Part shown: piece after piece, positions 3,768 to 61,936 of the stretch
Numbering within the stretch: the stretch's first letter is position 1
Layout: each line of letters begins with the position of its first letter
Source of the DNA: Azolla caroliniana
Taxonomy: Eukaryota > Plantae > Polypodiophyta
NCBI GenBank assembly: GCA_043228905.1
Contig: JBHGNT010000011.1
Span: 3,534,001-3,598,000 of the forward strand
DNA length: 64,000 bases
Reading direction: 5' to 3'
The notes under the pieces: model-generated
Database searches by the model: none
What the model was told of the DNA's origin: nothing
What the model saw: the letters and a program-made list of their open reading frames with translations, nothing else
Position numbers and translations under genes: made by a program

Positions 3768-3783
3768 GAAATCGGATCAGAAC

Positions 3784-31391: not shown

Positions 31392-32388
31392 CTTAAGTGC
31401 AAAGTGGCAGGCAACTAAAGAAATTTCATATAGAATTGTGCATACATCCAAATGGGTGATTCTTTTAGGACACTAAGCTGGGATCTATATTGATGCATCT
31501 GCTAAGATATGATTGTGGGTAGAAGAAGGTGCCCTTTTATATCCGCACCCTTAAGATGATGACGGAAAAAGGATGCAAAGCACCTTGGCTCAGCGATTAT
31601 CCTTCAACAGAAATTCATTTTGGGCTATATTTGCCTGTCCCACCAGAAAAAAACACTTACTGACCTTGTTTTTGCAGTTATAATTACTCGATTATCACAT
31701 TTGTTTTGCTAATCCTTTAAGTATATTCTAGAGTGATTTCCCTAATTAAAAAGTACAAAGAGAACATAAAAAAAGGACGCCGAGGAATTCTTGCAAGAAA
31801 AGAAAAGAAACCAGAATGACGCAATGTTGTAGACCCCAGGGATTCTTCGGGTACAAAGAAAACACAGAAACTTAAAACCTAGAAATTCTTATAGTGAGGG
31901 AGAAAATCAGGAAAAAAACAATGTTGCCAAGGCACATTAGACATGATTAGAGAGAGAGAAAAAAAGAAACCCAATAAAACAATGTAGCCTACCCTAGAAA
32001 TTCTTACAGTAAAAAAGAATTTCTAGGGTTGTAGTCTACCCTAACAATTCTTGCAGAAAATGGATAACAAAGAACACAGAGAGGGATCTCATCACTATTC
32101 AAGTGTGATCCTTGCAACGGAAAACAATACCTTTCTTCCATGCGATGGAAATCTAAGATTCCATATCCATGTCTGCCTGATTACACACACCATCAAGTGA
32201 ATTGATGGAAGGAGTTTTCACACTTGAACCAAGACATGGTAAGGTTTGGATTTGTTTACATGGAGGTATAGGGTTCGAATCCTGCCCTGTGCATGTAATG
32301 TATATTTTATGGACGATAAAAATTCTAATTCTCATGAACATGATGGATAATGGTGCCCAACACTGACTCGGACTAGTGACTCGTGACT

Positions 32389-34192: not shown

Positions 34193-36473
34193 ATGGAAGG
34201 AGGTGTGAGCGGTTTCCCAGGTATGATAGTTCTCAACTCACAGAACTATGCAGATTGGAAGATCAAGATGGAAGACCTTCTCATAGTTAAAGACCTGTAT
34301 GAGCCAGTCGACAGAGTAGAAATACCCAGGGGGGTATTGGAATTGGACTAGAAGCTTCTGAATAGAAAGGCGGTGGCCACTATCCGACAATGCGTCGATG
34401 TAAGTGTCCTTCAACATGTGGCGAACGACACAAATGCCCATGAAATGTGGCAGAAGTTGTCGGGTCCATATGAGAGGAAGAACGCGCTCAATAAAACCTC
34501 GCTGATGAGAAAGATCGTACGGTTGAAATACAGAGATAGTGAGAGCATCGTCGAAAACATCAACACATTCATGGGGTATGTAAATCAACTTGCTGTGACC
34601 AAGTTTCCCTTGGATGATGCAATGCAGGCCATCCTGCTGATGTGCACACTGTCAGATAGTTGGGAGAATCTGGTGGTTACTCTCAACACCTCCTGTCAAG
34701 AAGAGAACTTGTCTTTACAGACAGTGAAGACAAGCATCCGAAATGAGGAGGCAAGGAGGAAAGACAAAGGAGTCCTGTCCCAATCGGAGTGGAATCTGAC
34801 TCAACATATGGACAGAGGAAGAGACTGGCGAAGAAGAAGTCCGAAACGAACAGACAAATCCCACGCCAGATCGACCGTCAGATCGAAGTCCAGAGGTAAG
34901 CCTGTGTGCTTTTATTGTGGAAAGCCTGGACACTTCCAGAAGGACTGTCGACACTTAAAGAAAGATAAGAGTGTCGGAAATAATGTCGAACCCAAGAAGA
35001 TTCCTGATGAGAAGAACACTTCGGCCATTGCTACGAGCAATGAAGAACTCTTGTTCATTTGTGAACAGACGAGTGCAAATCTTGCAAGTGAAGATTGCAC
35101 GTGGGTGATTGATTCTGGGGCATTGTTCCACATAACTCCGTCGAGAGAGTATTTCTCGACTTACATAGCCGGGGATCATGGCTATGTAAAGATGGGTGAC
35201 AGTGGAGAGTGCAGGGTAATCGGAGTCGGAAGTGATTGCTTAATGACGTCGATAGGGTGTCGACTGACATTGAAGGATGTTCGACTCGTCCCCGATATCA
35301 GATTCATTGAAGGTTAGATGACGAAGGTTATAGTGGTAGCTTTAGAAATGGCAAGTGGAAGTTCTGTCGAGGAAATCTTATAGTGGCCCGAGCACAGAAA
35401 GAAGGCACATTGTACATGATGCGTGCCCGACTGTGCAAATCGGAAGTAAATGTGGCAGCCGACTTGGCAGGTGAGATAGAGGCTAGGCTACATGAGTGAG
35501 AAGGGAATGCATCTGTTAGCTGACCAGAAACTTCTACCAGAGATCAAGGGCGTGCATATGGAGAAGTGCATCGACTGCTTAGCCGGAAAGCAGAATAGAG
35601 CTGCATTCCACACAAGACCACTGAGAAGAAGAGAGGCTGCACTGGAACTTGTACACACGAACGTGTGCTATGTTGATGCTCCATCGCATCGAGGAGGACA
35701 ATACTTTGGGACATTCATTGACGACCATAGTCGGAAGACATGGGCCTTCGTACTGAAGATGAAGGATCAAGTATTGTCAGTTTTCAAGGAGTTCCATGCA
35801 AGAGCCGAAAGAGAGTCGGGTCGGAAGTTGAAGGCTGTTCGAACCGATAACGGTGGCGAGTACAAAGGGCAGTTCGAGGAATACTGCAAGAACCAAGGTA
35901 TTCGGATCGAATACACAGTGCCAAAGACCACATAATTGAATGGGCTTGCAGAGAGGATGAATCGAACGATCATGGAGAGAGTAAGGAGCATGCTCTCTCA
36001 TGCGAAACTCCCGAAATCCTATTGGGCTGAGGCGATGTACACAACTGTTTATCTGATCAACAGGTCTCCCTCAGTACCATTGAAGGGTGATGGCCCACAG
36101 AGGGTGTGGACGGGGAAGGATGTCTCCTACCAGCATATGAGGGTGTTCGGATGTCTGACGTACATGCATGTACCGAAAGATCAGAGGTCAAAGCTCGACA
36201 GCAAGTCGAAAGCATGCATATTCATAGGATACTCGGAAGATGATGTCCCACAGAGGGTGATGGACGGGGAAGGATGTCTCCTACCAGCATATGAGGGTGT
36301 TCGGATGTCTAACGTACATGCATGTACCGAAAGATCAGAGGTCAAAGCTCGACAGCAAGTCGAAAGCATGCATATTCATAGGATACTCGGAAGATGAATT
36401 CAGCTACAGGCTATGGGACCTAGTCGACAAGAAGGTAGTGAGAAGTCAGGATGTAGTCTTTCTAGAAGACAAG
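34193..36473 (+). pseudogene. Element E gag-PR-INT
   Basis: Motifs MEGGVSGFPG, CFYCGKPGHFQKDC, WVIDSGA and VRTDNGGEY, with stops and frameshifts. Confidence 0.9.
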
Positions 36474-36577
36474 TGTCATGAACAGTACTGAGACAGAGAA
36501 GGAATTAGTACTAAACGAAGGATTAGTACTATGAGAGGTGTGGAACTTCTTCGAGAGAAGGAAGAAGTGAGCGAGAC

Positions 36578-36619
<42 letters not shown>

Positions 36620-37026
36620 AGAAAGATATTTATTATATGAAGAGAATATACAACGGTGGCTAAAAGGCTTAAGACTGGCGTTGAACCAATTTGGTTCAAC
36701 ATAATGCCTAGTGCCCTCTTTTATAGTGTTTTCAGGAGTAATCCTGAAGCTTCTAGAATGTTCCAGAGAAATCTGGAATATACACTAATTTCCTATAATA
36801 AAATGTAAATGAAAATAATATCCTACGTATTACAATAGATGTTCTAATGGTCAAGAGCTCGACCCATATAATCTAAGGTCATGGGTTCGAGTCTTGCCAT
36901 ATCATGACACTAATTTCCTATAATAAAATGTAAATGAAAATAATATCCTACGTATTACAATAGATGTTCTAATGGTCAAGAGCTCGACCCATATAATCTA
37001 AGGTCATGGGTTCGAGTCTTGCCATA

Positions 37027-40000
37027 TCATGACACTATCCCCCCTTTAAAACGACGAGTGTCACGAGTCGTCTTGGATTGAGGACTCGGTTTGTGTGGAT
37101 ATTGACGATGGAAGTCTTCAAGAAGAGCACGAGCATTGGTTACATTCTCGATCGGTTCCCAAGTACGTTCGTTGGGACTATAGCCTAGCCAATCGACTAG
37201 ATAGTAGAGCTTGTTGCGAACAATCTTGGAATCAAGAATGGCGGCAACCTCGTACTCCGGCCCATCTTCAAGCTTGATCGGGGGTGGAGGTTGGATAAGA
37301 CGTTCTGGGATGGTGCTCTCGTGGTAGGGTTCGAAGAGAGAACTATGAAACACCGGATGTATCCGAAGTTGAGGAGGTAGATCGAGACGAAAAGCAACAT
37401 CATTAATCTTTCCAATAATACGGAAAGGACCTAATCGCCGATAATCCAACTTCTCACATGGGCGAGTAGTCTTGATGTGTCGTCGTAGCAACCACACCCG
37501 ATCTCCAATATTAAAACTAGATGGAAGTCGATGACGATCCGCGTAGACCTTGTGTGTTTGTTGAGCTTGCTGGAGATGAGTAGATAAATCCGCTTGTATC
37601 TTGCGTAACCGCTCCAAACGATCCTCCGCGCACGGATTTGTGGACACCTCTGGGGTTTCAAGTACACTCCACCGGGGGTGACATCCCGTATAAGCATAAA
37701 ATGGCGTAACTTTAGTGGATGCGTGGATAGAGTTGTTATAGGCAAATTCGGCGAAGTGGAGAATATCTGTCCAGTCGTCCTGATGATAGCTGAGAAAGCA
37801 CCGCAGATACTGCTCCAACGTTTGATTTGTTCGTTCAGCTTGGCCGTCAGTTTGTGGGTGGTAGCCGGAAGAGAGGTTACAAGTGACCTTGAGCATGTTA
37901 AAAAGGTGCTTCCAGAATTTTGACACGAACTGGGGTCCACGGTCGCTGATGATACTATCGGGGAGTCCATGATGCCGACATACTTCACGCATGACAATTT
38001 CGGCAGTGTCTTCACTGGAGATCTCCTTAGTACATGGCAAGAAATGAGCCATCTTCGTATATCGATCGACCACCGTTAGAATCGCATTGAACCCCTTAGA
38101 GACTGGAAGATCTGTGATGAAGTCTAGAGCAATGGATTGCCACGGCTTGCTTGGAATTGATAATGGTTCTAATAAACCATATGGATGATGCCTTGGCATT
38201 TTCGCTCTGCAACATGTATCACAAGTCCGAACAAAATCCTCGAGAAATTGTCGCATACAGGGCCACCAGAATGATCGTTGTACTAAATGTAATGTTTTAG
38301 TACTACCAAAATGCCCAGCTGTATATGTGTCATGACAGTTTTGTACTACTCGAAGGCGGCAAGAACCATTAGGAACATACAAAAGTTCTTTAAAGAAGAG
38401 TAATCCATCATGGTATTTGAATTGCCGATAGTCCGTACCTGGTGGTTGCGACTGTGAACACGACGCTCGAGAGGGATCAATTTGTGCTAGTATAGCTTGG
38501 GCGAACGCATCTGTCTTCAAGTCTTCACGTATGGTATCGATAACGCGGGAATCCATAGGCATGTCAAAGATTTGTGTTGCTTGTAATCGTGCCGGTCCCA
38601 AGATGACTTGTTTTTGGTTATCGAAAGCTGGCTCGCCGGGACGGGGTGCTAGATACGAACGCCGTGATAATGCATCTGCCTTCCCTTGGTGCCTCCCCGG
38701 ACGATATGTAATTTTGAAGTCAAAACGCGTGAGGAAGTGGGCCCACCGAGCTTGACGTCGATTCAACACACGAGCATCTTGAAAGTAGGCAAGATTCTTG
38801 TGGTCACTAAATACGGTGACTGGATGAGAGGATCCCTCCAGAAAATGCCTCCATTGCATAAAAGAATCCACTATTGCCAATAGCTCCTTATCATGGATTT
38901 CGTAGTTGATTTCGGCGGCATCAAACTTGCGTGAGTGAAAAGCCACAGGATGTAGCTTTTCATCATTCCCCTGTTGTGACAGAATGCTCCCCAATGCAAA
39001 ATCCGATGCGTCAGCTTCGATAATGAATGGTTTCTCCGGATCGACATGAGCTAGAATTGGAGCCGATGTAAATGCTTTTTTAAGACTCTCGAAAGCCATG
39101 TCCGTTTCTTCAGACCAGGTGAACGGTTGTCCCTTCCTGGTAAGTTGTGTGAGAGGTAGAACGATCTTTGAGTAATCCTGTATGAACTTCCGGTAAAAAT
39201 TGGCAAAGCCTAAGAAGCATTGCACATCCCGTACCGAACGCGGAGTCTGCCATTCTACCACCGTTCTGACCTTAGCTGGGTCCATGGAGATGCCTTCTGA
39301 CGAAATGATGTAGCCGAGAAATTCCACTTGGTTGCACCCGAAACTACATTTTTCTAGCTTTGCATACAGACCATGTTCTCGAAGTCGTTTTAGTACTAAT
39401 AGTACATGAGAATCATGTTCTTCTTGGGTCTTTGAATAAACCAGTAGATCATCCAAATAGATGATCAAACAATCATCCAATAGATCTCGGAATATATCAT
39501 TAGCCATGTGCTGGAAGACTGCCGGCGCATTAGTGAGGCCGAACGGCATGACAGTATACTCGAAGTGCCCATATCTGGTGCGAAACGCGGTCTTCCATTC
39601 GTCTCCTGGTCGGATCCGTACGAGGTTATATGCTCCCCGTAAGTCGATCTTCGTGAAGAACCTGGCACCATTGATCCGTTCTAAAAGACTTGAGATAAGG
39701 GGAAGAGCATACCTATTCCTGATTGTAACCTTATTCAAGCCACGGTAATCTACAACGAGACGAAGCGATCCATCTTTTTTCTTGACGAAGAAAATGGGCG
39801 CACCGGCTGGAGATTTCGAATGCCGAATGAAACCATTTTCCAAATTCTCCTCTATATAGGCCCGAAGGACTTCCAGCTCGGTTGGTGACAAATTGTAGAT
39901 CGGTCCCCATGGCGGCTCTTTTCCCGGTTGTAAATCGATGGGGCAATCGTACGGTCGATGATGAGGAAGTGTGTTGGCTTGTACTTTATCGAACACATCG

Positions 40001-40617
40001 GTGTAATGGCGATACTTCTCGGGAAGTTGAACGGTGGATTCTTCTTTAGTGGTGTTGGAGGGGTTTACTGATATTGCAAAGAGGAACATTTCCTCCTTGT
40101 GCCCTTCTTTATGCAACTGACGTAGCGAAATGGTTGCCATCTTCTGAGTTGACCCTTGGGTTTGTCGACACCGGATTTCTCTTGTTCTCCAATCTATGTC
40201 AGGGTTATGTAACTCGAACCACGGTAGTCCTAAAACTATAGGATGTTCTGGGATACTAATAATATTAAATGATACTACACATACTAAGTTATCTAGGATA
40301 ATATTAATGGGCTCTGACTCTTCTAGGATATTTCCGGAAGCAATGGGACGTCCATCAATGACTACTACAGAGGCTGGACACTGGAGTTTTCTTAGGGATA
40401 TCTTATGAGCTTGAGCAAATTTCTTATCCATAAAGCAAGAGTTAGCTCCGGAATCTAGGAGTGCTAGGACATGTACTGGAGGGGTACTTTTAGTACTAAC
40501 TATTACTTGGGCTACGAACACATCACTAACTTGCTTAGAGGGAATGGAACCACTAATGGGCTGCACAGATCTAGGGCTGTCCAACCAAACGGCTCCTATT
40601 TTGGCTGGACTTAGTCG
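37027..40617 (-). CDS. Pol of chromovirus F (PR-RT-RH-INT-chromodomain), probably reached by -1 frameshift
   Basis: Uninterrupted ORF with LLDSGANS, YLDD, EADASDF, HHCC/DDE integrase, GPF motif and EYEVAAILD...YLVDWLGY...TWEP. The listed ORF starts at TTG, and the frame stays open ~55 nt further upstream, overlapping the gag end. Confidence 0.93.
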   Translation of the reverse strand, partial: RLSPAKIGAVWLDSPRSVQPISGSIPSKQVSDVFVAQVIVSTKSTPPVHVLALLDSGANSCFMDKKFAQAHKISLRKLQCPASVVVIDGRPIASGNILEESEPINIILDNLVCVVSFNIISIPEHPIVLGLPWFELHNPDIDWRTREIRCRQTQGSTQKMATISLRQLHKEGHKEEMFLFAISVNPSNTTKEESTVQLPEKYRHYTDVFDKVQANTLPHHRPYDCPIDLQPGKEPPWGPIYNLSPTELEVLRAYIEENLENGFIRHSKSPAGAPIFFVKKKDGSLRLVVDYRGLNKVTIRNRYALPLISSLLERINGARFFTKIDLRGAYNLVRIRPGDEWKTAFRTRYGHFEYTVMPFGLTNAPAVFQHMANDIFRDLLDDCLIIYLDDLLVYSKTQEEHDSHVLLVLKRLREHGLYAKLEKCSFGCNQVEFLGYIISSEGISMDPAKVRTVVEWQTPRSVRDVQCFLGFANFYRKFIQDYSKIVLPLTQLTRKGQPFTWSEETDMAFESLKKAFTSAPILAHVDPEKPFIIEADASDFALGSILSQQGNDEKLHPVAFHSRKFDAAEINYEIHDKELLAIVDSFMQWRHFLEGSSHPVTVFSDHKNLAYFQDARVLNRRQARWAHFLTRFDFKITYRPGRHQGKADALSRRSYLAPRPGEPAFDNQKQVILGPARLQATQIFDMPMDSRVIDTIREDLKTDAFAQAILAQIDPSRASCSQSQPPGTDYRQFKYHDGLLFFKELLYVPNGSCRLRVVQNCHDTYTAGHFGSTKTLHLVQRSFWWPCMRQFLEDFVRTCDTCCRAKMPRHHPYGLLEPLSIPSKPWQSIALDFITDLPVSKGFNAILTVVDRYTKMAHFLPCTKEISSEDTAEIVMREVCRHHGLPDSIISDRGPQFVSKFWKHLFNMLKVTCNLSSGYHPQTDGQAERTNQTLEQYLRCFLSYHQDDWTDILHFAEFAYNNSIHASTKVTPFYAYTGCHPRWSVLETPEVSTNPCAEDRLERLRKIQADLSTHLQQAQQTHKVYADRHRLPSSFNIGDRVWLLRRHIKTTRPCEKLDYRRLGPFRIIGKINDVAFRLDLPPQLRIHPVFHSSLFEPYHESTIPERLIQPPPPIKLEDGPEYEVAAILDSKIVRNKLYYLVDWLGYSPNERTWEPIENVTNARALLEDFHRQYPHKPSPQSKTTRDTRRFKGGIVS

Positions 40618-41762
40618 TTTAACTCTTCTTCTAACTGACTAAGGACATCAAATTTGTTTGCTAGATCTGGGATATTAGTACTATTAGGACTATCAGATAT
40701 CCCTACTGAAATAGGTTCGGATTTAGTACAATTAGAACTAGCGACTATTTGGTTTACCTGTCTTCTTGGCCTATGGGGGCAATTTATTGCGATATGTCCT
40801 GGTCCACCGCAGTAAAGACATAGTCGATTTGTACGGCGTCGCTGCTTTTCTTCTTCGGATAACGGCCCTCGACGACGTGTAGTGTCAATCTCCATCGGAG
40901 TCGGAGTATTCGCTGGAGACGCATTATATGACTCCCTCGGAAAAGGTCTTGCTACCACTGAGGCGTAGGTGGGCTCTGATCTTGCCCTCGGCATCTGTAG
41001 CTGTCGTTCCGAACGTCGCTCAAAGAGGCGGTTGTCACATCTCACCGCGCGACTGATTGCTTCTGTTAAGGACTTTGGCTCTTCGGGGAAGGTCAAGAGT
41101 AAATCCTTGACGTCGTTGCGTAAACCATAACGGAATTGCTCCATCAACGCTTGATCATCCCAAGGGATATCGGTGGCGAGTAGGCGAAAATCTGCAGCGT
41201 ATGCGGAGGCTGGACGGTCACCTTGGCGTAATCGCCGGATTTTGTTGATTGCGGTCCTAATGCTGTCAGTATCTCCGAAACATGCTTTAAACTCACCTAG
41301 AAACTCTTCAAAATTGTTGAGTAACGGAGATTCCTTTTCTAATAGTGGAGCGAACCATGACAACGCTGAGCCACTTAACAAAGTGCCTACTAAACCCACT
41401 CGTGATGCATCGGTGGGATATCGGGAAGGATGCATTTGAATAACTAATCGTACCTGGTTAAGGAACCCTCTAAACTGCGATCGCGTTCCATCGAACTTCG
41501 TGGGAAGGCCAATCTTAGGTTCTTTATGAATCCCTTGTGTTCCGGGCCCATGTTGTTGCATCGCTACGATGGTGGCTTCGAGTTGTTGCACGCGTAACGC
41601 AAGTTCCCCATGTTGTTGTTGCGTTTGCTGCTTTTCTAAGGAGATTTGCTGAAGATCCCCCAGCAACCGTTGGTTTTCTTGTTCCAAAGCATGGAACTTC
41701 TCCTTCAAGCATTGGAATTCCGAGAAAACAGAGTGATATTCTTTAGCGCTAACAGTGGCCAT
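40611..41762 (-). CDS. Gag of chromovirus F
   Basis: 383-aa ORF with a coiled-coil N-terminus, retrotransposon gag core (PTKFDGTRSQFRGFL, LRQGDRPASAYAADF) and CCHC CLYCGGPGHIAINC. Confidence 0.93.
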   Translation of the reverse strand: MATVSAKEYHSVFSEFQCLKEKFHALEQENQRLLGDLQQISLEKQQTQQQHGELALRVQQLEATIVAMQQHGPGTQGIHKEPKIGLPTKFDGTRSQFRGFLNQVRLVIQMHPSRYPTDASRVGLVGTLLSGSALSWFAPLLEKESPLLNNFEEFLGEFKACFGDTDSIRTAINKIRRLRQGDRPASAYAADFRLLATDIPWDDQALMEQFRYGLRNDVKDLLLTFPEEPKSLTEAISRAVRCDNRLFERRSERQLQMPRARSEPTYASVVARPFPRESYNASPANTPTPMEIDTTRRRGPLSEEEKQRRRTNRLCLYCGGPGHIAINCPHRPRRQVNQIVASSNCTKSEPISVGISDSPNSTNIPDLANKFDVLSQLEEELND

Positions 41763-41939
41763 GGGATGAAAGAAAAGAGGAATAAAAGATTAGTAAGAAA
41801 TGAGAGAGACAGAAGGTAGGGAAATTGGTTCAAACTGTCATGAACAGTACTGAGACAGAGAAGGAATTAGTACTAAACGAAGGATTAGTACTATGAGAGG
41901 TGTGGAACTTCTTCGAGAGAAGGAAGAAGTGAGCGAGAC

Positions 41940-41979
<40 letters not shown>

Positions 41980-42104
41980 AGAAAGATATTTATTATATGA
42001 AGAGAATATACAACGGTGGCTAAAAGGCTTAAGACTGGCGTTGAACCAATTTGGTTCAACATAATGCCTAGTGCCCTCTTTTATAGTGTTTTCAGGAGTA
42101 ATCC

Positions 42105-42124
42105 TGAAGCTTCTAGAATGTTCC
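42105..42124. promoter_or_regulatory. Heat-shock element (4 inverted nGAAn units) upstream of TATA in the 5' LTR of F; copy at 36745-36764
   Basis: GAAgcTTCtaGAAtgTTC. TATAAAA lies on the - strand at 42079-42085. Confidence 0.7.
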
Positions 42125-42399
42125 AGAGAAATCTGGAATATACACTAATTTCCTATAATAAAATGTAAATGAAAATAATATCCTACGTATTACAATAGAT
42201 GTTCTAATGGTCAAGAGCTCGACCCATATAATCTAAGGTCATGGGTTCGAGTCTTGCCATATCATGACACTAATTTCCTATAATAAAATGTAAATGAAAA
42301 TAATATCCTACGTATTACAATAGATGTTCTAATGGTCAAGAGCTCGACCCATATAATCTAAGGTCATGGGTTCGAGTCTTGCCATATCATGACAACAAG

Positions 42400-44349: not shown

Positions 44350-46073
44350 AGGGGGGGAGTTTGTTGGGAATATGTCCCTCCAGTGGGAGGAGGAACCGAC
44401 TGTCCAGAAGTTGCTGACAGTTGATGACTACGAGGAGCCGACTGATTGGACCAAGGAGTGCCAACAGTCGAAGACAGGGAAGATCCGACTGTTCGGAAAG
44501 ACGATAGTTGAAGAGTCGAAAACAGTGAGTCGACTGTTTGATAGTTCGACTATTATTATTATAGCAATAATAATAATGACACGTAGCAGAGGCTACATTT
44601 GTAAATAACCCATATAGTGTATAAGTATAAATACACTTAGGGCAAAACGAGTTTAATAGGAAAAAACAGAGAGGCTTCTGTGGTCGATAGAGCCGTGCAC
44701 TCTTGAAGTTTTAACCTCCATGATATCGCACCGCCACCATAGGTGAAGATGTAACCTGATGTCGATTTCAGATTGTCCGTATTCCCGGCATAGTCGGAAT
44801 TGGTGTAGCCTTCGACTTTGGCTGAGGTTGTCAGTCTGAAAGTCAGCTGTGTATCTTCGGTCCCTCTCAGGTACCTGAAGATGTGCTTGACGGTCTCCCA
44901 ATGCTTCCGTCCTGGGTTTGACATGTACCGGTTGACCACTCCTACGACATACACTAGGTTGGGTCGGGTCGCCACCATTGCGTACATGATACTTCCTACG
45001 GCCGATACGTATGGGCATATTTCCATTAAGCTCTCTCTCCTTTTCCATTGAAGGAGAGTCTCTGTCCGATATTCGGATCGACGTCGAAAGCGGTGTTGGT
45101 GTTGGCTTCACATTCTCCATATTGAAGCGCTTCAGCACCTTCCGGATATAGTCGGACTGGGAGAGTTAGAGAGTCTTGGTCATCCAATTTTGCTCGATCC
45201 TCATGCCCAATATGTGACGGGCTTGTCCGAGTTCCTTCATCACGAACTTGTCATGAAGGTGTGAAAGTGTTTTTAGAATCTAAGCCATTGAACATTAGGA
45301 GAATATAAAGTATAGATAATTCACCTTTTGAGGATAAGAACACGAACTAAGACCTTAGGGAAGAAGTCAAAAGTAAAAGTACGAGACCAAGAGAAAAGTA
45401 AAAAGAGAAAACGCAGACTATAAAAAACAGTAAAAATAGAATGGTCATAACTCCCTCGTTGTTTATCCAAATATCACGTTTAAATATGGATTAGAAAGCT
45501 TGTAAAAAGAGCTTTCTATAGCTTTTTAAATCGCTTAATTTGGATTTCGGATGAGGGAGATATGACGATTAGAAGGTCGATGTGTCATAGCTAAAAATAG
45601 GAAGATAAAAAGCTTCTAAAAATAGCATGAACGTAGATAAGAAGAGGAAGGTTATAAAAGAAGAAGTGATATTAGTGAGGAGGGGCTAAGAGTGAAGGCC
45701 AAAGAGTGGATGAGGAGTGTTAGGAAGAAGTGTCTTAGAAGAGGAAGGTCTTTGGTTTTAGTTCAATGTGGAGTTTGTCTCCTTTGTATTCTCTTGATGT
45801 TGGAATATCAGAACATTCTTATTTCTTGCTCGCTTTCTCTATCTTTTTTCTTAGTTTCTTGAGTTATACTCTCTAATCATAATTACCTAGAGCTATATAA
45901 TATATTATGATTTTCAACTCCATCTAATCGGTTTGGTCAAGCCCTCATATAGTGTATAACTATCTATTATCTTATACACCCTATCATTTTGGCGCTCCAG
46001 GGAGGGTCGATCCTTTCCGTATAGGAAGAGAAGTTATCATTTAATTGTGTTACTATATTACATTAACTTAGCT

Positions 46074-47687
46074 ATGCAATTTGCATTTTCGGGTGAAAGA
46101 ACACAAGATGCTGGTGCCTTTTTGGCATGCTTTGAGCATCATGCCATATCTATTGGACGCATCACCGACAACGAAAAGTTGCCCTTGTTGGTAGCTACAT
46201 TCTATGGTCGTGCTCGAGATTGGTATGACTCTCTTCCGCAAAATGAACAAGGAGAATATCAATTATTGGTGCATCAATTTCGTACAAGATATATTCAATG
46301 GAAAAGTGCAACTGAGGTAAGGGAGGAGCTTTTTCAACTAAAGATGGAATCACCTTTTGGTTTTTTAGAGTATGAACGAAATTTCCAAGAATTGTGGACG
46401 ACGTGGATTCGTCTTCGTGGTGGCACCGAAGACGAGTGGTTTAAGATAGAACAATTTAAGGTGGGCCTTGATATGCATTTCCGTTTGGAGGCAAGCTTGA
46501 AGGATCCAACGACTTTTCAAGCTCTTCTCCAAGTTTGTCAAGATTATGATCGACAAGTGAAGATGATGAGTTCCATGGGGGATCCCCAAATGACGGCTTT
46601 GGGTGCAAATTTGATGCCTCGTGCCAACTTTCAAGCCTTATCTTCAATTGTGCATGGTGGACAAGTGTTTCCAAATGTGTATACCACCACAACAATAAAC
46701 CCAACAAGTATATCTCAAGAAGTGGAACAAGTGAAGAGTGAACAAGATACAATGGCGTTGGTGAATCGGCGCTTTGATGAAGTGATGGCCCACTTGCAAC
46801 AATCCCAAGCAATTCGCAACACTATTCCCGATGGTGGTGGCTCTAGAGGGCATCAAGGTGTAATTTGTTATTCTTGTCAAGAGGAGGGACACATCTCAAC
46901 AAGATGTCCTCATCGACAACAAAGAGGCATGGGAAGAGGCATTTATCAAGTGCAAAGGAATGGACAACGACCTAACAACAATGAAGTCGAAGGAAACGTA
47001 ACACTCCCTATGGCTCAGGTTCCTACAATTCCTCATAATGTGAATCTTCTTAATTTTATTGATGATAGTGATAGTGCTTGTGAAGTAGCTCTTGTGAAAA
47101 GGACAAGAGCCTCGCAAAAGGAGAAAGAAGTTGAAGGAGAATCTAGTGACTCAAGACAAAAGAAGAAGTCTAAGGAGAATGAGAAAGAGGACAAATTGAG
47201 AAGGAGACACTCTAGAAGGAAGATAAAGATGGAGGATATTCCTATGGGAGAAGGTGTAGAATCTTTCAATCGGAAGCATGAATTGATATCGAGTGGACCA
47301 AGGATAACATGGCCGCAACTTCTCCAATTATCATCCACATTACAAAATGAGTGGGGGAGGCTTGTGAGTATTTGCCAAAGTCAAAAGACCGTGCATTACG
47401 TGGGGATCATGCGAGTAGAAGATCGAAAGGACATACGTCCAATCATCCCTGTCTCCATCAAAGGGGTTCACATCAAAGATGCCTTGGGTGATAGTGGTGC
47501 TAGGGTAAGCTTGATTTCTGAATTTGTAGTAAACAAAGTAGGAATTCCTATTAGTAGGTCATCTTCAACAAGGGTGGTTGTAGTAGATAGTGGAGTGGTG
47601 CATTGCACAAGCATAGTGGAGGATGTGTTCATCAAGTGTTTTGGAATAAGAGTTCAACGCATGGTTACAAGAAAGTTCCAATTATAA
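46074..47687 (+). CDS. Gag-protease of element J
   Basis: Open ORF with gag core (F.G.....FL..FE, GRARDWY), CCHC CYSCQEEGHISTRC and ALGDSGARVSLI aspartic protease. First ATG at 46074. Confidence 0.85.
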   Translation: MQFAFSGERTQDAGAFLACFEHHAISIGRITDNEKLPLLVATFYGRARDWYDSLPQNEQGEYQLLVHQFRTRYIQWKSATEVREELFQLKMESPFGFLEYERNFQELWTTWIRLRGGTEDEWFKIEQFKVGLDMHFRLEASLKDPTTFQALLQVCQDYDRQVKMMSSMGDPQMTALGANLMPRANFQALSSIVHGGQVFPNVYTTTTINPTSISQEVEQVKSEQDTMALVNRRFDEVMAHLQQSQAIRNTIPDGGGSRGHQGVICYSCQEEGHISTRCPHRQQRGMGRGIYQVQRNGQRPNNNEVEGNVTLPMAQVPTIPHNVNLLNFIDDSDSACEVALVKRTRASQKEKEVEGESSDSRQKKKSKENEKEDKLRRRHSRRKIKMEDIPMGEGVESFNRKHELISSGPRITWPQLLQLSSTLQNEWGRLVSICQSQKTVHYVGIMRVEDRKDIRPIIPVSIKGVHIKDALGDSGARVSLISEFVVNKVGIPISRSSSTRVVVVDSGVVHCTSIVEDVFIKCFGIRVQRMVTRKFQL

Positions 47688-47688
47688 G

Positions 47689-48066
47689 ATGGAAGATTTG
47701 AGGTGTGTGTCACCTATAGTTTTGGTTCCAAAGAAGAATGAGATCAATTTCAAACCCTTGAATGATTCGACCAAACGAGATGAATTTTCACTTCCTTCTC
47801 GAGATGAGATTGTCGATAAAATGGTTGTTTATACAAAACAAGGTAGTGTGAACAATATGTTGTGCCAAAAAGGATTTCATGTGGATGATTCAAAGATTAA
47901 CATAATTACAAAGATGACAATTCCGACAAGTCTTGAAGCTTTGAAAGTATTTGTGCAAAAGGTGCGCTCGCTCGAAAGATTCATTTATATGTTGACATGC
48001 TTACTGCTATCAAGAGTGATGTATCCCATGGCCCTACTAGTCTTTGGAGAGTTAACGAAGACATAA
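47689..48066 (+). pseudogene. Internally deleted RT remnant of J
   Basis: SPIVLVPKK / NFKPLN..TKRDEFSLP..DEIVD / GFHVDDSKI..I...PT....LKVF. No YxDD motif, RNase H or integrase. Confidence 0.75.
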
Positions 48067-51000
48067 TGATTGTGGTAACCTCTTTCTTTGTGTTGACAAG
48101 GAGAAAGATGATGATGGAATTGTCAATGTGTGTGTGGGTGTGTCTAGGAGTGTGAGGTTTTTCCTACCGACTAGCGGGGGTTTTACTCACATAGTTTGTT
48201 TCTTTTTCTTCTCTCCTTCTTTGTCTATAGCCTACCATAAGGCGAAGGAGTTTTTTTTATTCTTTTTATCTTCGGCTCACCATAAATGGTTCGCTCAACA
48301 AGCAAGGGGGGGGGGGGGCTAAATGTGAAAGTGTTTTTAGAATCTAAGCCATTGAACATTAGGAGAATATAAAGTATAGATAATTCACCTTTTGAGGACA
48401 AGAACACGAACTAAGACCTTAGGGAAGAAGTCAAAAGTAAAAGTACGAGACCAAGAGAAAAGTAAAAAGAGAAAACGCAGACTATAAAAACAGTAAAAAT
48501 AGAATGGTCATAACTCCCTCGTTGTTTATCCAAATATCACGTTTAAATATGGATTAGAAAGCTTGTAAAAAGAGCTTTCTATAGCTTTTTAAATCGCTTA
48601 ATTTGGATATCGGATGAGGGAGATATGACGATTAGAAGGTCGATGTGTCATAGCTAAAAATAGGAAGATAAAAAGCTTCTAAAAATAGCATGAACGTAGA
48701 TAAGAAGAGGAAGGTTATAAAAGAAGAAGTGATATTAGTGAGGAGGGGCTAAGAGTGAAGGCCAAAGAGTGGATGAGGAGTGTTAGGAAGAAGTGTCTTT
48801 GTGGAAGAGGAAGTGTCTTAGAAGAGGAAGGTCTTTGGTTTTAGTTCAATGTGGAGTTTGTCTCCTTTGTATTCTCTTGATGTTGGAATATCAGAACATT
48901 CTTATTTCTTGCTCGCTTTCTCTATCTTTTTTCTTAGTTTCTTGAGTTATACTCTCTAATCATAATTACCTAGAGCTATATAATATATTATGATTTTCAA
49001 CTCCATCTAATCGGTTTGGTCAAGCCCTCATATAGTGTATAACTATCTATTATCTTATACACCCTATCAGAAGGCTCCGCTCTCTGCTTGATTGCTTCCT
49101 GCAATCAGCATGTTGTCGACGTATAGGATCAGATAAATCCTAGTCTCGTCGGCCAGTTGCCGAATATACATGCATGGGTCAGAGTCATGTTGGCGGTATC
49201 CAAGCTGCCTGATGTAGGAGTCAAACTTTTGGTTTCAAGCCATATAGAATTTTCTTTAACCGACATACGAGGTAACTGTCCTCCCCCGTTGCCGTGAAGC
49301 ATGCTGGTTGAGACATGTAAATGTCTTCTTCCAGATCTCTGTGTAGGAATGCCGTCTTTACATCCAGCTGCTCTAGCTCTAGGTCTTCTGCCGCCACAAC
49401 TCCTAGTAAATGTCGGAGGGTGGTCATCTTGACTACTGGTGAGAATATCTCGTTGTAGTCGACCCCGTATTCTTGTTTAAATCCCTTCGCGATGAGCCGA
49501 GCTTTGTACTTGGGTTTTCTGAGTTGGATACATATTTGTATCGGAAAACCCATTTGCAGGGTAGCAGCTTCCTTCTAGTTGGTAGTTCAACCAACACCCA
49601 TGTCTGATTCTTGTGAATCGAGTCCATTTCAGATTTCATGGCTTGTAGCCATGTGTCAACATCCGTTGCGGCCTTAACTTCTTCATAAGTGCTTGGTTCG
49701 CCTGCATCAGTGTAGTTGACATAGTCGAGGCTCGGTTGAAAACATTCTGTTGGCCTTCGAGCTCATCCAGATCTCCTGGGTGCCGAGATAAGTGGTTCGG
49801 ATTCTTCGATCAACTCGGTTGGGCGATTGGTATTTGTTGAACCATTTGTGTCAAGAGTCTTGTTAGGTGACCTGCCCCCAAGTCGGGATTTCAGTGGTGT
49901 CACGTTGTCCTCCCATAGGGACTTTGTCGACTCGGTTCTGTTTCCTACTCGCATCTTGTTGACTTTGCCTGCTTCGACTTTTGTCAAATCGGCTCTGTCG
50001 TTGATGGCTTTGTCTTTGAGTTTGACTAGTGGACTTCCTACCAATTCGGAGTCGGCAGGTATGTTGTCGTCTTGTTCGAGTTCGATTGTTTGTCGAATCT
50101 CTGAGTTGGCCTGGTGGGTCGGTCCTTCTACGACGTCTCTGTCGTCTTGGAATGATACCTTTTAAAAACAACTATTTTCGGCAGGTTCCGCTAAGAGAAG
50201 ATAGAGTCTTCATTGAAGACTACGTCATTGCTCCGAATCAGTTTCCGATTCTTAGGGTCCCATAGCCTATAGCCGAATTGCCCATCGGTTCCATAACCGA
50301 GAAATATGCATTTCATTGCATGGGGTGCCAATTTTGTCCTTTTATCCCTAGGGATGAACGAGTAGGCTTCGCATCCGAATATATGGAGCCATCGTAGGTT
50401 GGCTGTTTGCCTGACCATAGTGCCTGTGGCACTTTGAGCCTAATTTCTCTCGACGGTGCTAGATTTATCAGGTATACTGCCGTTTGCAATGCTTCTGCCC
50501 AGAAATCCAGCTTCATTCTGGCTTGGTGAAGCATTGCCGTCACCCTCTCCTGGATCGTTTTGTTGATCCGTTCTACCACTCCATTTTGCATGGGTGTGTA
50601 TCGAACGAACAATCTTTTGATGTCGGATCCCTTTGTTGGACATGTACTATTTGAAGGCTCTGGAGGTGTACTCACCTCCATTGTTGGATCTGAGTGTCTT
50701 CACTCTGTGTCCCGACTGGTTCTCCACTTCAGATATCCACCGAGTGAAGACCTCGAGCGCTTCGTCTTTGAACTTGATCGAGTAGGCCCAAACCTTCGTC
50801 TACAAAGGTGATGAAGTATCGGGAGCCTCCTAGTGATTGTTTTGGCATGGGCCCAGATATATTTGTGTGCATGAGCTCTAGGGGCTGTCGTACCATCTCG
50901 TAGTGGAGAGTGTGTGGACTTCGGGTCTGTTTCCCGTATCAACAATGCTCGCAAAAATCCGTCTTCGCTTGGAGTTTTGGGATGTAGCCTACCGCCATCA

Positions 51001-53493: not shown

Positions 53494-55578
53494 TGTTAGC
53501 AATATGTCCCTCCTATGGGAGCAACCGACTGATTGGGCCGAGTGCCGACAGTTGAAGATGTGGAGAGTCAACTGTAGGAGTTGACAGTAGGAGAGTCCAA
53601 GTCGAAGACACGACTGACTAGTCGGGCCAACTAGATGGTCGAAGATAAGGCTGACTAGTTGGGCCGACTAGATAGTCAACATTGGAGTCGACTAGTTGAA
53701 CAATCGGCTGATTAACTATTATTGTTATAATAGGAATGACAGTGGCAGTGGCTACATTTGTAAATAACCCATATAGTGTATAAGTATAAATACCCTTATG
53801 GCAAACAAAGAGTTGAATATAGAATAGAATAGTCGTGAGCATTTGTTGAAGTGTGTGTGATAGAGAGCGAGAGGGAACGACGCCATAACTGTGTGAGCTT
53901 AGACGTCAAGAGCCTTGTGAGGCTGTTACACTCTTCCGAGAGAGAGTGTTGTAATCTCATCGTCTTGTATATCCACTATATAGTGAAGATTTGTTCTCCA
54001 GTGGTTTTTTTCCTTGTTTAGGGTTTCCACGTAAAAGTGTGTACTCTGTGTATTTCGTTGTTTTTCTTTGTTTTGGGTCTTTCTCACGAATAGACAGGAG
54101 TGCATCTCTACAAACTGGTATCAGAGCTAGGTTGAAGATGGAAGGAGGTGTGAGCGGCTTCCCAGGCATGATAGTTCTTAACTCTCAGAACTATGTGGAC
54201 TGGAAGATAAAGATGGAGGACCTTCTCATAGTCAAAGACGTGTACGAGCCACTCGACAGAGCAAAAATACCCATGGGGGTATTAGAGTCGGAATGGAAAC
54301 TTCTTAACAAAAAGGCTGTGGCCACCATCCGACAGTGCGTCAATGTAAGTGTCCTTCAACATGTGGCGAATGACACAAATGCCTACGAGATGTGGCAGAA
54401 ACTATCAGGCTTATATGAGAGGAAGAACACCCTCAACAAAACATTCGTGATGAGGAGGATCGTAAGGCTGAAATACAGGGACGGGGAAAGCATAGTTGAG
54501 CACGTAAGCACATTCATGGGGTATGTGAATCAACTTGCTGCAACCAAGTTTCCTCTCGAGGATGCAATGCAAGCCATCCTCCTATTGTGTATCTTGCCAG
54601 ACAACTAGGAGAACCTCGTGGTGACTCTTAACACCTCCTTTCAAGAAGAGAACTTGTCTCTACAAGTGGTAAAGGCAAGCATCCTGAACGAGGAGACAAG
54701 AAGGAAGGACAAGAGTGTCTTGTGTTGGGAAATCAGTCCCTCCGGATGGGATCCGGTTATGAATGAAGAGGACCCGGTGAGAACCGGAAGAGATCCGGAA
54801 ACCGGATCGGATGGACCCAGTGAGAATTGGAAGACAAGACATATTTGTAAATATGTTCTGAGTAAGCCTATTGAGGCTATATTTGTAAATAGCCCTAATT
54901 TCATATAAGTATAAATATGACTTAGGGAAATCACTTAAGTGGTTGTTGTCATATTGTTGTATGTAACTGTTGTATAGAGCGAGTGACAGAGGGAGAGAGT
55001 GAGAGACAGAGCGATACTCTGTTGTAACCGCTGCTTGGCAAAGAAACAGAGCTTGAGGTTGTTGCCTTTGAGTCTCTGATTGTACCCTCTTTCTTCATAG
55101 TGTTGGTTCAGATTCTGTGGGCTCCCGTGGTTTTCCCCTATTAGGGTGTCAGAACCAAGAGAGAAGGTAAAGTGATAGAAGAAAGATATAAAGAGATCAA
55201 AAGAAGAGGAATGAAATGATAAGAGAAGAATGAGTGTATTAAAGTAGAATAAGAATGGATACAAGATAGGCGATGAGAGCTTAAGACTGGTGTTGATTCA
55301 AATTGGTTTTGAGAAGAATTGTATGTCCATATTTATAGGTTCCTATAGAATAACCTGGTGATTTCTATAATGTTCTAGAATGTTCTAGACCTAGAATATT
55401 CTAAGATGTTCAAGGATATTCTAGAATGTTCTAGGATGTTCTAGAACATTTACAATATCAGTCTATTACAAGAAGTAGCTTTTATTATTTCATATAATTA
55501 TATGTTATCTTAATGGTTAGATTCTTGATTATGTATTACAAGGTCTTGGGTTCAAGCCCAAGTGAAGCCACATAAGGT

Positions 55579-58500: not shown

Positions 58501-60595
58501 GGACAATCGTATGGCCGATGCTTTGGAAGTACACTAACTTTGACTTTGTCGAAGACATCAACATATTCTTGGTATTTTAGGAATGTAGACCTCTGACGTC
58601 CCTTGAGTGTCACTAGAAGGCGCAACTGATATGGAAAATAAGAATAAATCTTCTTTTGCTCCTTCTTGGCATAATTGTTCTAGGGTGATGGTTGAAATTT
58701 GATGAAGAGGAACAACATGTTTGGTAGAGGGTGAATTGGTAACACTATGTTTTTCAAGGGGAGGATCTTGGGTTCGAACCTTGACTACTATGTTTCCTTT
58801 TGAAGGGCACCTAATTTCTCGTCGTCTCCAATCAATTATTGGGTTATGTAGCTCGAACCATGGCAAACCAAGGACTATTGGATGCTTAGGGCTACGGATT
58901 ATGTTAAAGGAGACCACACATCCTAAATCACCTAAGAGTATGTGTATCGGCTCAGACTCCTCGAATATCTTTCCAGAAGCTATGGGACGTCCATCAATCA
59001 CTACTACGGAAACTGGGCAAGGAAGTTTATGCAAGGCTATTTGATGTTTTCGGGCAAAATCTCTATCCATGAAACAAGAATTGGCTCCGGTATCTAAGAG
59101 AGCTAGGACATGAAGTTGACAACTTGGTGTCCTAACTTGTACTTGGCTTGAGAAAACTCTACTAACATGCTTGGAAGAGATGGAACCCACACTAGGCTGT
59201 ACAGATCTAGGACTGTCCAACCAAACGGCTCCGATTTTGGCCAGACTTATTCGTTTGACTCCTCTTCTAATTGGCTTAGGACCTCAAACTTATTGGATAG
59301 AGTTGGATTACTAGAAACACTAGTTGGCACAGTTTCAACAATGCTAGACTCATTTCTATTATCAATAATGCTAGACTCATTTCTATTATCATAGTTAATG
59401 TGATGTACCTGACGTCTCGGTTTGTGTGGACAATGAATGTAAATATGTCCTGGACCTCCACAATATAAGCATAATCGATTTGCTCGACGACATTGTTTCT
59501 CTTCATCTGATAAAGGTCCTCGTCGTCGGGTCATATCAATCTCCATCGGTGTCGGGCTATCCATTGGTGTTGGGCTACGTGCTTGCCGTGGAGTTGGGAC
59601 GGAGCTATATTGTTGCCTTGGAGATTGTGCCATCACTGATGCATAAGTTGGCATAAATCTTGATCTTGTTTGTTGTTGTTGTCGCTCGGACCGACGCTCA
59701 AAAGGCCGATTATCACACCGTATTGCTTGGCTAATAGCTTCTGTAAGGGATTTTGGATCCTCAGGGAAGGTAAGAAGTAAATCTTTTACATCTCCACGGA
59801 GGCCCAAATGAAACTGCTCCATTAGAGCTTGTTTGTCCCAAGGAATATCACTTGCAATGAGACAAAAATTGGCTGCATACGTTGATGCTGGTTGATCCCC
59901 TTGTCACAATGTGCAAATCTTGTTGATTGCCGTTCTTACACTATCTGTGTCTCCGAAGCAAGCCTTAAAATCTTTGATAAATTCTTCAAAGTTGTTGAGT
60001 AGGGGCGAATTTACTTCTAGGAATGGAGCAAACCATGACAATGCCGTGCTAGTCAATAAAGTGCCCACTAACCCGACTCGAGATGAATCCGTCGGATAAC
60101 GCGTTGTCGCGTTGTTACGCGCGTGCATGTAGAAAGGCGGGACCACAAGGGTCTTGGACTAGGGAGTGACGGAGCATAGGAAGCCACACTTCACCCTTTT
60201 CGGGGCACCCCAGGAGCACACCGGAAGCAACCGAAGGGAGAGAGAGAGAGTGAGCAGGCATGCAACATTGATTCTCACACAAACATGTACATAAGCAAGA
60301 AGGAAACACTAAGACACACACATGCACACCAAAAAGACCCGAATATGCACAACCACATGTATATATATTTACAAGAAAATGAGATTCAACACCGACTTCA
60401 AGCCGGACCTAGGTCGCATGAGATACAACCGTTGTCTACTGCCAAGCCGCCGGTCGGGGAGCTCTCGGGCTTGTCGCGCCGAGCGGGGTCTTGCACAGAG
60501 TACAGGACAGAAAACTGGAACGCTAGATGCCAAGGCCCGACGCACAGAAGGACCAAGAAGAAGAAGCAGAGGGGAGCAAGAAGAAGAAACCCTAA

Positions 60596-60667
<72 letters not shown>

Positions 60668-61251
60668 TCTCTCCGTCTAACGGTATACCCTACTAATACA
60701 AAAATGGGCAACCCTTCTACACGGGACCATCCCTTCCTTTTATAGAACAAGGAGAGGGATGCATTACAATGTGGGATAAATCCCGATTCACATGGGATTC
60801 TTCGTCCCAACTTAACTCCTATTATTCACACAATTACACAAGTGTGAGTGCACATGGTGCACCCCGCCGATGTAGCCAATATTTCCCGGTTTCTGCCTCT
60901 GGACGAAATTCTTCACGACAGCGTGGGATGCATCTGAATTACCAAGCGCACTTGATTTATAAAACCCCGAAAATGTGCTCTCGACCCATCGAATTTAGCT
61001 GGGAGGCTGATTTTGGGCTACTTAAGAACTCCTTGACTGTCGACTTTTAGTTGTTGTAAAGCTACTATTGCCGACTCTAGTTGTTGAACCCTTCGTGTAA
61101 ACTCGTCGTGTATTTGTTGCTTCTCTACTGAAACCTTCTGTAGGTCTTCAAGCAATCGTTGATTCTCCAGCTCTAGTGATGCAAACTTGCTTTTGAGATT
61201 CTCCATTTCTGCAACAAGGGTGAAGTATTCTTGTGGGTTGCCAGCAGCCAT
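55579..61251 (-). pseudogene. Element I gag-pol with chromodomain, multiple frameshifts
   Basis: Fragments are collinear with F: [39 protein letters not shown] and EYEIASILD...YLVDWLGY. Confidence 0.92.
60105..60920 (-). mobile_element. Solo LTR M inserted in gag of I, 4-bp TSD
   Basis: Ends TGTCGCG...CACGACA with GCGT on both sides. The host frame QMHPTRYPTD is restored on removal. Orientation inferred from TATAAAA on - at ~60738-60744. Confidence 0.85.
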
Positions 61252-61612: not shown

Positions 61613-61936
61613 TTACAATATCAGTCTATTACAAGAAGTAGCTTTTATTATTTCATATAATTATATGTTATCTTAATGGTTAGGTTCTTGATTATGTATT
61701 ACAAGGTCTTGGGTTCAAGCCCAAGTGAAGCCACATAATGTTCACGGATTCATGACATAGGGTTTTTCACGTAAACTTCTTGTGTACTCTTTATCGTTGT
61801 GTTTGTACATGCGTTCACTCTCTATTTCCCATTTTTGTGTTTGATCCTTAAACGAAGGGATTCAAGAATCGGTTGTGGCCGAGCAATATTCCGCACTATT
61901 CTCGTCAATTTGGTATTAGAGCGAACAACAGAATAA

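What the first reader, a model, noticed from the sequence alone, without database searches (positions are those of the whole stretch)
36833..37029. tRNA-like Pol III module embedded antisense in U3 of two diverged chromovirus LTRs
Seen in F (36833-36904, 36958-37029 and two copies in the other LTR): TTCT-AATGGTCA-AGAG D-arm, a 17-nt anticodon-arm-length segment, AGGTC variable loop and ATGGG-TTCGAGT-CTTGC T-arm, in tRNA spacing. Seen in I (55500-55570, ~61663-61733): ATCT-TAATGGTT-AGAT, AGGTC and TTGGG-TTCAAG-CCCAA. The A-box- and B-box-like cores (TAATGGT, AAGGTC.TGGGTTC) are kept while the surrounding U3 is hard to align. Known: Cassandra LTRs carry 5S-derived Pol III promoters, and tRNA genes/B-boxes act as chromatin barriers in yeasts. 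Inference: elements that need no tRNA primer keep a tRNA-derived TFIIIC site at the outer edge of the LTR. It could insulate the HSE-TATA promoter in heterochromatin or make antisense Pol III RNA. This is the best candidate for an undescribed system here.
Basis: partly seen in the sequence, partly recalled or inferred. Interest (0 to 1): 0.8.

Follow-up and report, generated by a model that had tools for sequence, protein, structure and literature searches.

The report
tRNA promoter relic in chromovirus LTRs
Three distantly related families of a plant jumping gene start their terminal repeat with a backwards, decayed tRNA-like stretch whose two promoter boxes stay conserved while the spacer between them has randomised, so it likely serves as a docking site for the host's tRNA-gene transcription factor, although binding and function are untested.

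Summary
The motifs are at the stated places. Textbook A and B boxes at tRNA spacing (at most 2 mismatches) hit only the six LTR copies; shuffles give 0.5 per window. The six copies are two independent families. A third family (L001) has the module at the same place and strand, scoring 15.8 bits on RF00005, below the 29-bit cut-off.

Silent pol sites are saturated across the three families (48 of 272 identical). The boxes keep 12 of 22 positions, AAGGTC 6 of 6, the remaining spacer 5 of 27: selection, not inheritance alone.

It is not tied to self-priming: self-priming relatives L003 and SM-Tcn1 lack it.

New here: a second antisense tRNA-like pair in family I's protease-RT linker, and a strong hairpin in family F.

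Best reading: a captured tRNA-gene relic kept as a TFIIIC site at the LTR edge (about 0.5). Precedents are Helenus TRIMs and foamy-virus U3 Pol III genes, so this is a new variant. No expression or binding data.

The parts
36474..42394 (-). Element F: full-length Tcn1-like chromovirus, target-site duplication ACAAG, inserted in a copia element
   Evidence: LTRs 99.6% identical, TSD; Pfam gag, PR, RT, RH, IN, chromodomain
36474..37034 (-). F 3' LTR (561 bp)
41836..42394 (-). F 5' LTR (559 bp); TATA at LTR position 310, HSE-like repeats at 272-282
36958..37029 (+). tRNA-like module, outer copy in F 3' LTR: A box 36965-36975, AAGGTC 37000-37005, B box 37009-37019
   Evidence: (13.9 bits)
36833..36904 (+). 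tRNA-like module, inner duplicated copy in F 3' LTR: A box 36840-36850, B box 36884-36894
42193..42264 (+). Module, inner copy in F 5' LTR (A box 42200, B box 42244)
42318..42389 (+). Module, outer copy in F 5' LTR (A box 42325, B box 42369), pointing out into the flank
36972..37025 (.). F-family long imperfect hairpin, arms 36972-36992 and 37006-37025; folds on both strands
   Evidence: -24.2 kcal/mol, z -5.2, 0 of 200 shuffles; sense strand -24.4; arms without variants at 10% or more
36782..37031 (.). 125-bp tandem duplication of outer U3; unit ends share a 6-nt microhomology with the PPT/LTR junction
   Evidence: template slippage inferred
37035..37047 (-). F polypurine tract
41822..41835 (-). 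F primer-binding site complementary to the LTR's own R region (42040-42051): predicted self-priming
37027..40638 (-). F pol, open for 1203 codons, chromodomain with aromatic-cage residues
40611..41789 (-). F gag, open for 392 codons
55147..61757 (-). Element I: Tcn1-like chromovirus, TSD TAGGG, LTRs 55147-55594 and 61311-61757 (98% identical), pol broken by a frameshift and stops
55499..55570 (+). Module in I 3' LTR: A box 55506-55516, B box 55549-55559
   Evidence: (8.7 bits)
61662..61733 (+). Module in I 5' LTR: A box 61669-61679, B box 61712-61722
   Evidence: (9.2 bits)
58722..58794 (+).
   Evidence: 11.7 bits, above all 20 shuffled windows; present in both L002 copies, absent from F; 3 mismatches to textbook boxes, a level shuffles reach about 6 times per window

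Best explanation
The module is likely the relic of a tRNA gene (or tRNA-derived SINE head) captured backwards at the outer edge of U3 in the ancestor of one Tcn1-like clade, and it is likely kept because host TFIIIC binds its B and A boxes. Shown: position, strand, tRNA spacing, presence in three families, conservation of boxes against a randomised spacer, loss of a working cloverleaf. Inferred: every new insertion would carry one TFIIIC site at each LTR, between the flanking chromatin and the Pol II promoter about 110 nt or more further in. The role I commit to is a boundary or open-chromatin anchor that would help the promoter stay usable in the repeat-dense chromatin where these copies sit (both are nested in other retrotransposons). 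Antisense Pol III RNA would be a by-product: only L001 has a T4 stop right after the module, while F and I would read 50-1000 nt on.
For: Boxes at tRNA spacing hit only the LTR copies. Third family L001 matches at the same place and strand with a perfect A box, RF00005 15.8 bits, and a T4 run 22 nt after the B-box start, as at a tRNA gene end. Three-way identity: boxes 12 of 22, AAGGTC 6 of 6, remaining spacer 5 of 27 against 48 of 272 at four-fold sites (p=2e-4) and 34 of 120 in the rest of U3 (p=0.024). In 781-2156 contigs per run from 4 runs no B-box position varies at 10% or more; A-box changes fall on positions 9-12, three of them degenerate in the consensus (G/A, T/C, N). D and T arms in tRNA register: 77.8% of cells paired, 0 of 500 shuffles, best of 7 registers. 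TFIIIC sites act as boundaries in yeasts (PMC4502379, abstract and opening paragraphs).
Against: No binding, chromatin or RNA data. Position 10 of the A box, G in the consensus, is T in family I and A in 57% of depth in run X13. AAGGTC, outside both boxes, is better kept than either box, which TFIIIC binding alone does not explain. Within family F the flank upstream of the module is as invariant as the B box, and variation fits the hairpin (0 of 41 arm positions variable, 10 of 63 others; p=0.006, post hoc) better than the boxes (4 of 22 variable); laying needs 80% likeness, which hides diverged copies. In an automatic U3 alignment the whole module was no better kept than the rest of U3 (18 of 54 vs 34 of 120, p=0.59). 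Only three independent families. Close self-priming relatives do without it.
Confidence: 0.5

Rival explanations
1. tRNA-derived, but kept as a nucleic-acid structure next to the polypurine tract (for plus-strand priming, strand transfer, packaging or RNA processing); the boxes survive because they lie in stems and loops.
For: F folds into a 19-bp hairpin on both strands, z -5.2; arms invariant in the family; T-stem cells 85.7% paired across 7 rows; 13 G-U against 1 A-C in D and T stems of 5 modules on the tRNA-like strand.
Against: I and L001 fold no better than shuffles (z -1.0, -0.45). The F hairpin laid on all rows shows no excess of double changes (361 of 500 shuffles as high). The G-U excess is partly expected from the G-rich skew of that strand and from shared ancestry.
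Confidence: 0.2
2. A working antisense Pol III gene: the selected product is a small RNA (tRNA-like or hairpin precursor of small RNAs), as with foamy-virus U3 miRNA genes.
For: L001 has A box, B box and terminator in a tRNA-sized unit; F would give a long hairpin; precedent in SFV U3 (PMC3993851 passages).
Against: F and I have no T4 near the module: 908 and 648 nt on from the 3' LTR, host-dependent from the 5' LTR. Spacer sequence, which would form any small RNA, is at neutral divergence.
Confidence: 0.12
3. The genomic (sense) RNA uses this stretch to anneal a host tRNA through its D and T loops, as reported for HIV-1 U3-R, to help strand transfer or dimerisation.
For: Orientation is right: sense U3 is complementary to a tRNA; the best-kept block runs from the variable loop to the T loop. 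HIV precedent seen as a title only (reference 59 in PMC6468702).
Against: Positions 49-52 and the whole anticodon arm differ among F, I and L001, so no single tRNA fits; the elements are predicted to self-prime.
Confidence: 0.08
4. Neutral relic of an old tRNA or SINE insertion, or chance likeness of Pol II factor or integrase sites to A/B boxes.
For: RF00005 and ARAGORN negative in the window; tRNA-like pieces are common in LTRs (Kojima: 'not a few LTRs'); a stray T-arm-like hit lies at 32236-32292; relatives lack the module.
Against: Silent sites are saturated (26-42% pairwise between families) yet 18 of 28 box and AAGGTC positions and the 45-46 nt spacing are kept. Chance of a 2-mismatch pair in 200 nt of one strand is about 8e-4 (computed from the 0.5 per window), and L001 was an out-of-sample hit.
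Confidence: 0.1

Closest known systems
Helenus / TRIMp3 (Kojima 2024, PMC10886601; parts 1-4 of 6 read plus passages); Cassandra as described there
   Same: tRNA-derived sequence inside an LTR, conserved around boxes A and B, mostly no functional tRNA; one family known from Selaginella.
   Different: Helenus are short non-coding TRIMs with tRNA primer sites whose boxes are proposed to transcribe the element itself. Here the carriers are 5.9-6.6 kb gag-pol chromoviruses with TATA promoters, and the boxes point away from the element's reading direction. The paper argues autonomous partners must use Pol II and does not treat their LTRs.
Simian foamy virus U3 Pol III miRNA genes (Kincaid et al. 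2014, PMC3993851; passages read)
   Same: A/B-box Pol III units with hairpins inside U3 of an autonomous LTR retroelement; box mutations lower expression.
   Different: Those are shown to be expressed and have terminators; here nothing is shown, the unit has tRNA-gene geometry, sits at the outer LTR edge, and a near terminator exists in only 1 of 3 families.
Tcn1 chromoviruses, SM-Tcn1 (Novikova 2010, PMC2864245, passages and supplement S3; Neumann 2019, PMC6317226, passages)
   Same: Gag-pol-chromodomain layout, aromatic-cage chromodomain, self-priming site; SM-Tcn1 has nearly the same R-region primer and PBS as element I.
   Different: SM-Tcn1 U3 shows no module by eye; the passages read mention no tRNA-like U3 sequence.
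TFIIIC/B-box boundary elements of yeasts (PMC4502379; abstract and opening paragraphs)
   Same: B-box sites that bind TFIIIC and limit heterochromatin spread: the mechanism proposed here.
   Different: Fixed host elements, tested by mutation; here a mobile, untested site in a plant.
tRNA3Lys-gene-like sequence in HIV-1 U3-R (Piekna-Przybylska 2010; title seen in a reference list; paper not held; the rest recalled)
   Same: tRNA-gene-like sequence embedded in U3.
   Different: Matches one specific primer tRNA; here no single tRNA fits the three families and the element is predicted to self-prime.

Membership tests
tRNA gene | Cloverleaf scoring above RF00005 / ARAGORN thresholds | tested here: not met
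   0 ARAGORN genes; no RF00005 hit for F or I; L001 15.8 bits vs cut-off 29
tRNA gene | Paired anticodon arm with canonical loop, paired acceptor stem | tested here: not met
   Anticodon stems 3/5, 3/5, 4/5 with non-canonical loops; acceptor-like pairing only in L001 and the I pol copy, off register by one (read by eye)
Type 2 Pol III promoter | A box and B box at tRNA-gene spacing | tested here: met
   F 1+1, I 1+0, L001 0+2 mismatches to recalled consensus; spacing 46, 45, 45
Type 2 Pol III promoter | T4+ terminator close behind | tested here: inconclusive
   L001 at 22 nt; F 760-1033 nt; I 648 nt, or 50 nt in host flank
Type 2 Pol III promoter | TFIIIC / Pol III occupancy and transcription | not testable with these tools
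   No ChIP or stranded RNA data available
Helenus / TRIMp3 | tRNA-derived sequence in the LTR with conserved A and B boxes | tested here: met
Helenus / TRIMp3 | Short non-coding TRIM (311-1263 bp) with tRNA primer-binding site | tested here: not met
   5.9 and 6.6 kb, gag-pol present, self-complementary PBS
Tcn1 chromovirus | Ty3 order PR-RT-RH-IN with C-terminal chromodomain bearing the aromatic cage | tested here: met
   (cage residues read by eye)
Tcn1 chromovirus | No tRNA PBS; self-priming complement in the LTR | tested here: met
   PBS complementary to R in F, I and L001 with matching changes
Tcn1 chromovirus | RT phylogeny inside the Tcn1 clade with named references | tested here: inconclusive
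   Tree had no named reference (quick tree); closeness to SM-Tcn1 judged by eye
tRNA-derived SINE | Head followed by body, tail and own TSD; free copies in the host | tested here: not met
   Only 10-35 nt lie between B box and LTR end; module profile finds no free copy in the window except a 10.6-bit partial hit; whole genome not held

The most novel reading that the evidence does not exclude
A clade of autonomous, self-priming plant chromoviruses has domesticated a host tRNA gene as a portable TFIIIC/Pol III boundary at the outer edge of each LTR, and in one subclade a second one inside pol, so that each copy inserted into heterochromatin brings its own insulator or antisense Pol III unit and seeds thousands of Pol III factor sites across the genome.
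Probability: 0.3. Interest if true: 0.75.

Novelty: new variant of a known kind. Interest (0 to 1): 0.52.

Why it matters
How chromoviruses that land in silenced chromatin stay expressible is open. A self-carried TFIIIC site would be a simple, testable answer, and a high-copy natural test of whether B-box boundaries work in plants as in yeasts. It would extend tRNA-derived LTR promoters from tiny non-coding TRIMs to coding elements, in the opposite orientation. Even if the function is structural, the module marks a selected cis element of Tcn1 LTRs that my searches did not find described.

Tried and rejected
ARAGORN default: none; at lowered thresholds it fires across the window and at 90% not on the modules. 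Rfam on window and on both modules: no tRNA. No whole genome held; metagenome loci not searchable as genomes. No RNA holder listed: no evidence either way. BLASTN of modules against phages: only short T-arm matches at E 0.2-8, to several tRNA types, no isotype call. Pattern scan of viral contigs returned phage tRNAs, none with pol; I reused them as a training set after dropping those matching the fetch pattern or outside 70-78 nt (266 of 511 kept). That profile scores L001 only 7.4 bits, within shuffle range. Second viral protein scan and an R-region scan gave no new relatives. L004 and L090 are close relatives but lack the outer U3 in the contig: untestable. One search had the T stem misplaced by four columns; one search is the corrected run. 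The F long hairpin as a clade-wide fold: not supported. Link to self-priming or to HSE repeats: rejected. A recalled report of tRNA-gene excess in fern genomes was not found in the main text of PMC6786969; its supplements were not looked at. PMC6951006 passages did not support a rod-like fold for SINE heads. Landing-pad idea from earlier notes: no insertion in front of any of the six copies; too few to test. Literature: 10 searches listed no paper on tRNA-like U3 in Tcn1; most hits were seen as listings only, subscription journals and Repbase entries are not covered, and five .doc supplements of PMC2864245 could not be read.

Full report
1. Setting. The window is retrotransposon-dense plant DNA with one LRR gene at 2310-3776. 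The host was not determined; Tcn1 is described from non-seed plants (PMC6317226). Element F (36474-42394, minus strand) has 99.6% identical LTRs, TSD ACAAG, and open gag and pol with a chromodomain. Element I (55147-61757, minus) has 98% identical LTRs, TSD TAGGG and a broken pol. Both lack a tRNA primer site; the bases after the 5' LTR complement the R region, with matching changes in F, I and L001, which predicts Tf1-type self-priming as reported for Tcn1.

2. The observation. The described letters are present at all six places. They lie at the outer U3 edge, antisense to the element, with T8-T54 spacing 46 (F) and 45 (I). The four F copies come from twin LTRs and one exact 125-bp duplication, so the window has two independent cases. 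Recalled textbook boxes with 2 mismatches or fewer hit these six places and nothing else; 40 shuffled windows give a mean of 0.5 and at most 2. Two family hits against 0.5 expected would be modest alone; the shared position and strand make it strong. A profile of 266 phage tRNAs gives F 13.9 bits and I 8.7-9.2, against at most 8.4 in 20 shuffles. ARAGORN and RF00005 see nothing.

3. Relatives. Protein scans gave 79 metagenome, 10 viral and 6 genome-bin loci. A quick tree of RT-RNase H (28 rows, SH-aLRT only) puts F, I, L001, both L002 copies and L004 in one clade (99), sister to L003, L090 and L094. L001, found by protein alone, starts its LTR with the same antisense module: perfect A box, 2-mismatch B box, spacing 45, RF00005 15.8 bits (E 0.46 over 4227 families, below the 29-bit cut-off), and a T4 run 22 nt after the B-box start. 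L002 is family I again. I scored LTR starts, picked by a PPT-plus-TG rule, in 29 hand-chosen loci of the 95: 1 had no start, 1 was too short, the 2 in-clade ones scored 1 and 2 mismatches, 24 of 25 outgroups scored 5-8, and L066 scored 3 in a nested insertion. Many of the outgroups are near-copies of each other. SM-Tcn1 shows no module by eye. So the module belongs to one clade, not to self-priming elements in general.

4. Selection. Four-fold sites in pol are saturated among the families: 26-42% pairwise, 48 of 272 three-way (L002a stands in for I). On alignment A1 the three LTR families share 6 of 11 A-box, 6 of 11 B-box and 6 of 6 AAGGTC positions, but 5 of 27 in the rest of the spacer, the neutral level (boxes vs silent sites p=2e-4). 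Against the rest of U3 (34 of 120, inflated by gap placement) p=0.024 for the boxes, while the whole module in the automatic alignment was not better than the rest (18 of 54, p=0.59). The boxes were chosen because they looked conserved in F and I, so L001 is the fair test. Within family F, contigs from 4 runs (781-2156 laid per run) vary at 10% or more at only 10 of 104 positions: two upstream of the A box, A-box positions 9-12, and four in the anticodon-loop region; none in the B box. The upstream flank is invariant too, so this test does not single out the boxes. Position 10 is mostly G in X1, X4 and X15 but A in 57% of depth in X13.

5. Structure. D and T arms in tRNA register pair in 77.8% of cells over 7 rows (5 distinct modules), above all 500 shuffles and all slid registers, though double changes are not in excess: a sign of tRNA ancestry. 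F instead folds as a long hairpin (z -5.2) whose arms hold none of the 10 variable positions (p=0.006, post hoc). I and L001 do not fold better than shuffles, and the F hairpin does not carry over as a covarying fold.

6. A second module. Family I has about 25 extra codons between protease and RT relative to F. Their antisense strand reads as another tRNA-like A/B pair at 58729-58781, 11.7 bits, above all shuffles, though 3 mismatches by plain motif count is chance level. The L002b paralog (59% identity at silent sites to L002a) keeps 17 of 22 box letters and 19 of 31 between them. Coding constraint cannot be excluded.

7. Mechanism. Shown: a tRNA-spaced A/B pair, antisense, at the LTR edge, under purifying selection, without a working cloverleaf. 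Inferred: capture of a tRNA gene or SINE head in the clade ancestor (L001's terminator-like run favours a gene); retention as a TFIIIC site (about 0.5); use as a boundary or open-chromatin anchor for the LTR promoter (about 0.3 overall), by analogy with yeast TFIIIC boundaries. Rivals: structural role beside the PPT (0.2), functional antisense small RNA (0.12), tRNA annealing (0.08), neutral or chance (0.1). The perfect conservation of AAGGTC is not explained by the leading model.

8. Comparison. It works like Helenus LTRs in anatomy and like foamy-virus U3 Pol III units in setting, but is a member of neither: the carriers are coding chromoviruses and the boxes face away from the element. It is not a tRNA gene. 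Ten literature searches listed no description in Tcn1; coverage limits are given under Tried and rejected. Unchecked notes of this scan report tRNA-type boxes in chromovirus LTRs of a likely gut fungus acting as landing pads; not tested here and not counted as support.

9. Verdict. New variant of a known kind, interest 0.52.

Noticed in passing
window 58722-58794; L002 1006-1064 and 6330-6388: Second antisense tRNA-like A/B pair inside an in-frame linker insertion of family I pol, kept in a diverged paralog.
   Followed up: partly
window 36782-37031 and 42142-42391: Exact 125-bp duplication of outer U3 in both F LTRs, ending in a microhomology with the PPT/LTR junction; no listed contig bridged it, so probably rare or private.
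   Followed up: partly
L066 3546-3610: An element nested in a fungal-type LTR starts with an antisense perfect A box and a 3-mismatch B-like site at spacing 44: possibly the same layout in another lineage or a Helenus-type end.
   Followed up: partly
window 32236-32292: Stray T-arm-like stretch outside the two chromoviruses, 12.2 bits on the tRNA profile; possible decayed tRNA or SINE piece.
   Followed up: no
PMC2864245 supplement S3 (SM-Tcn1): SM-Tcn1 has an R-region complement of its PBS almost identical to element I's, although that paper reports no evidence for self-priming (read by eye).
   Followed up: partly
window 55360-55450, 61530-61615, 36740-36780: Arrays of heat-shock-element-like repeats in U3 of I (6 overlapping units) and F (3); none in L001.
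   Followed up: partly
window 45260-49069: Ty3-type element with 727-746 bp LTRs and a single 575-codon gag-like ORF, no pol domains found: likely non-autonomous.
   Followed up: no
window 36088-36397: 153-bp tandem duplication in the copia integrase region just left of element F.
   Followed up: no
window 25481-25912 and 2099-2310: 54-bp and 34-bp tandem arrays; the second abuts the LRR gene at 2310-3776.
   Followed up: no
L090, L091, L093, L094, L095: Plant- or fungus-type chromovirus contigs inside prokaryotic genome bins: probable contamination.
   Followed up: no
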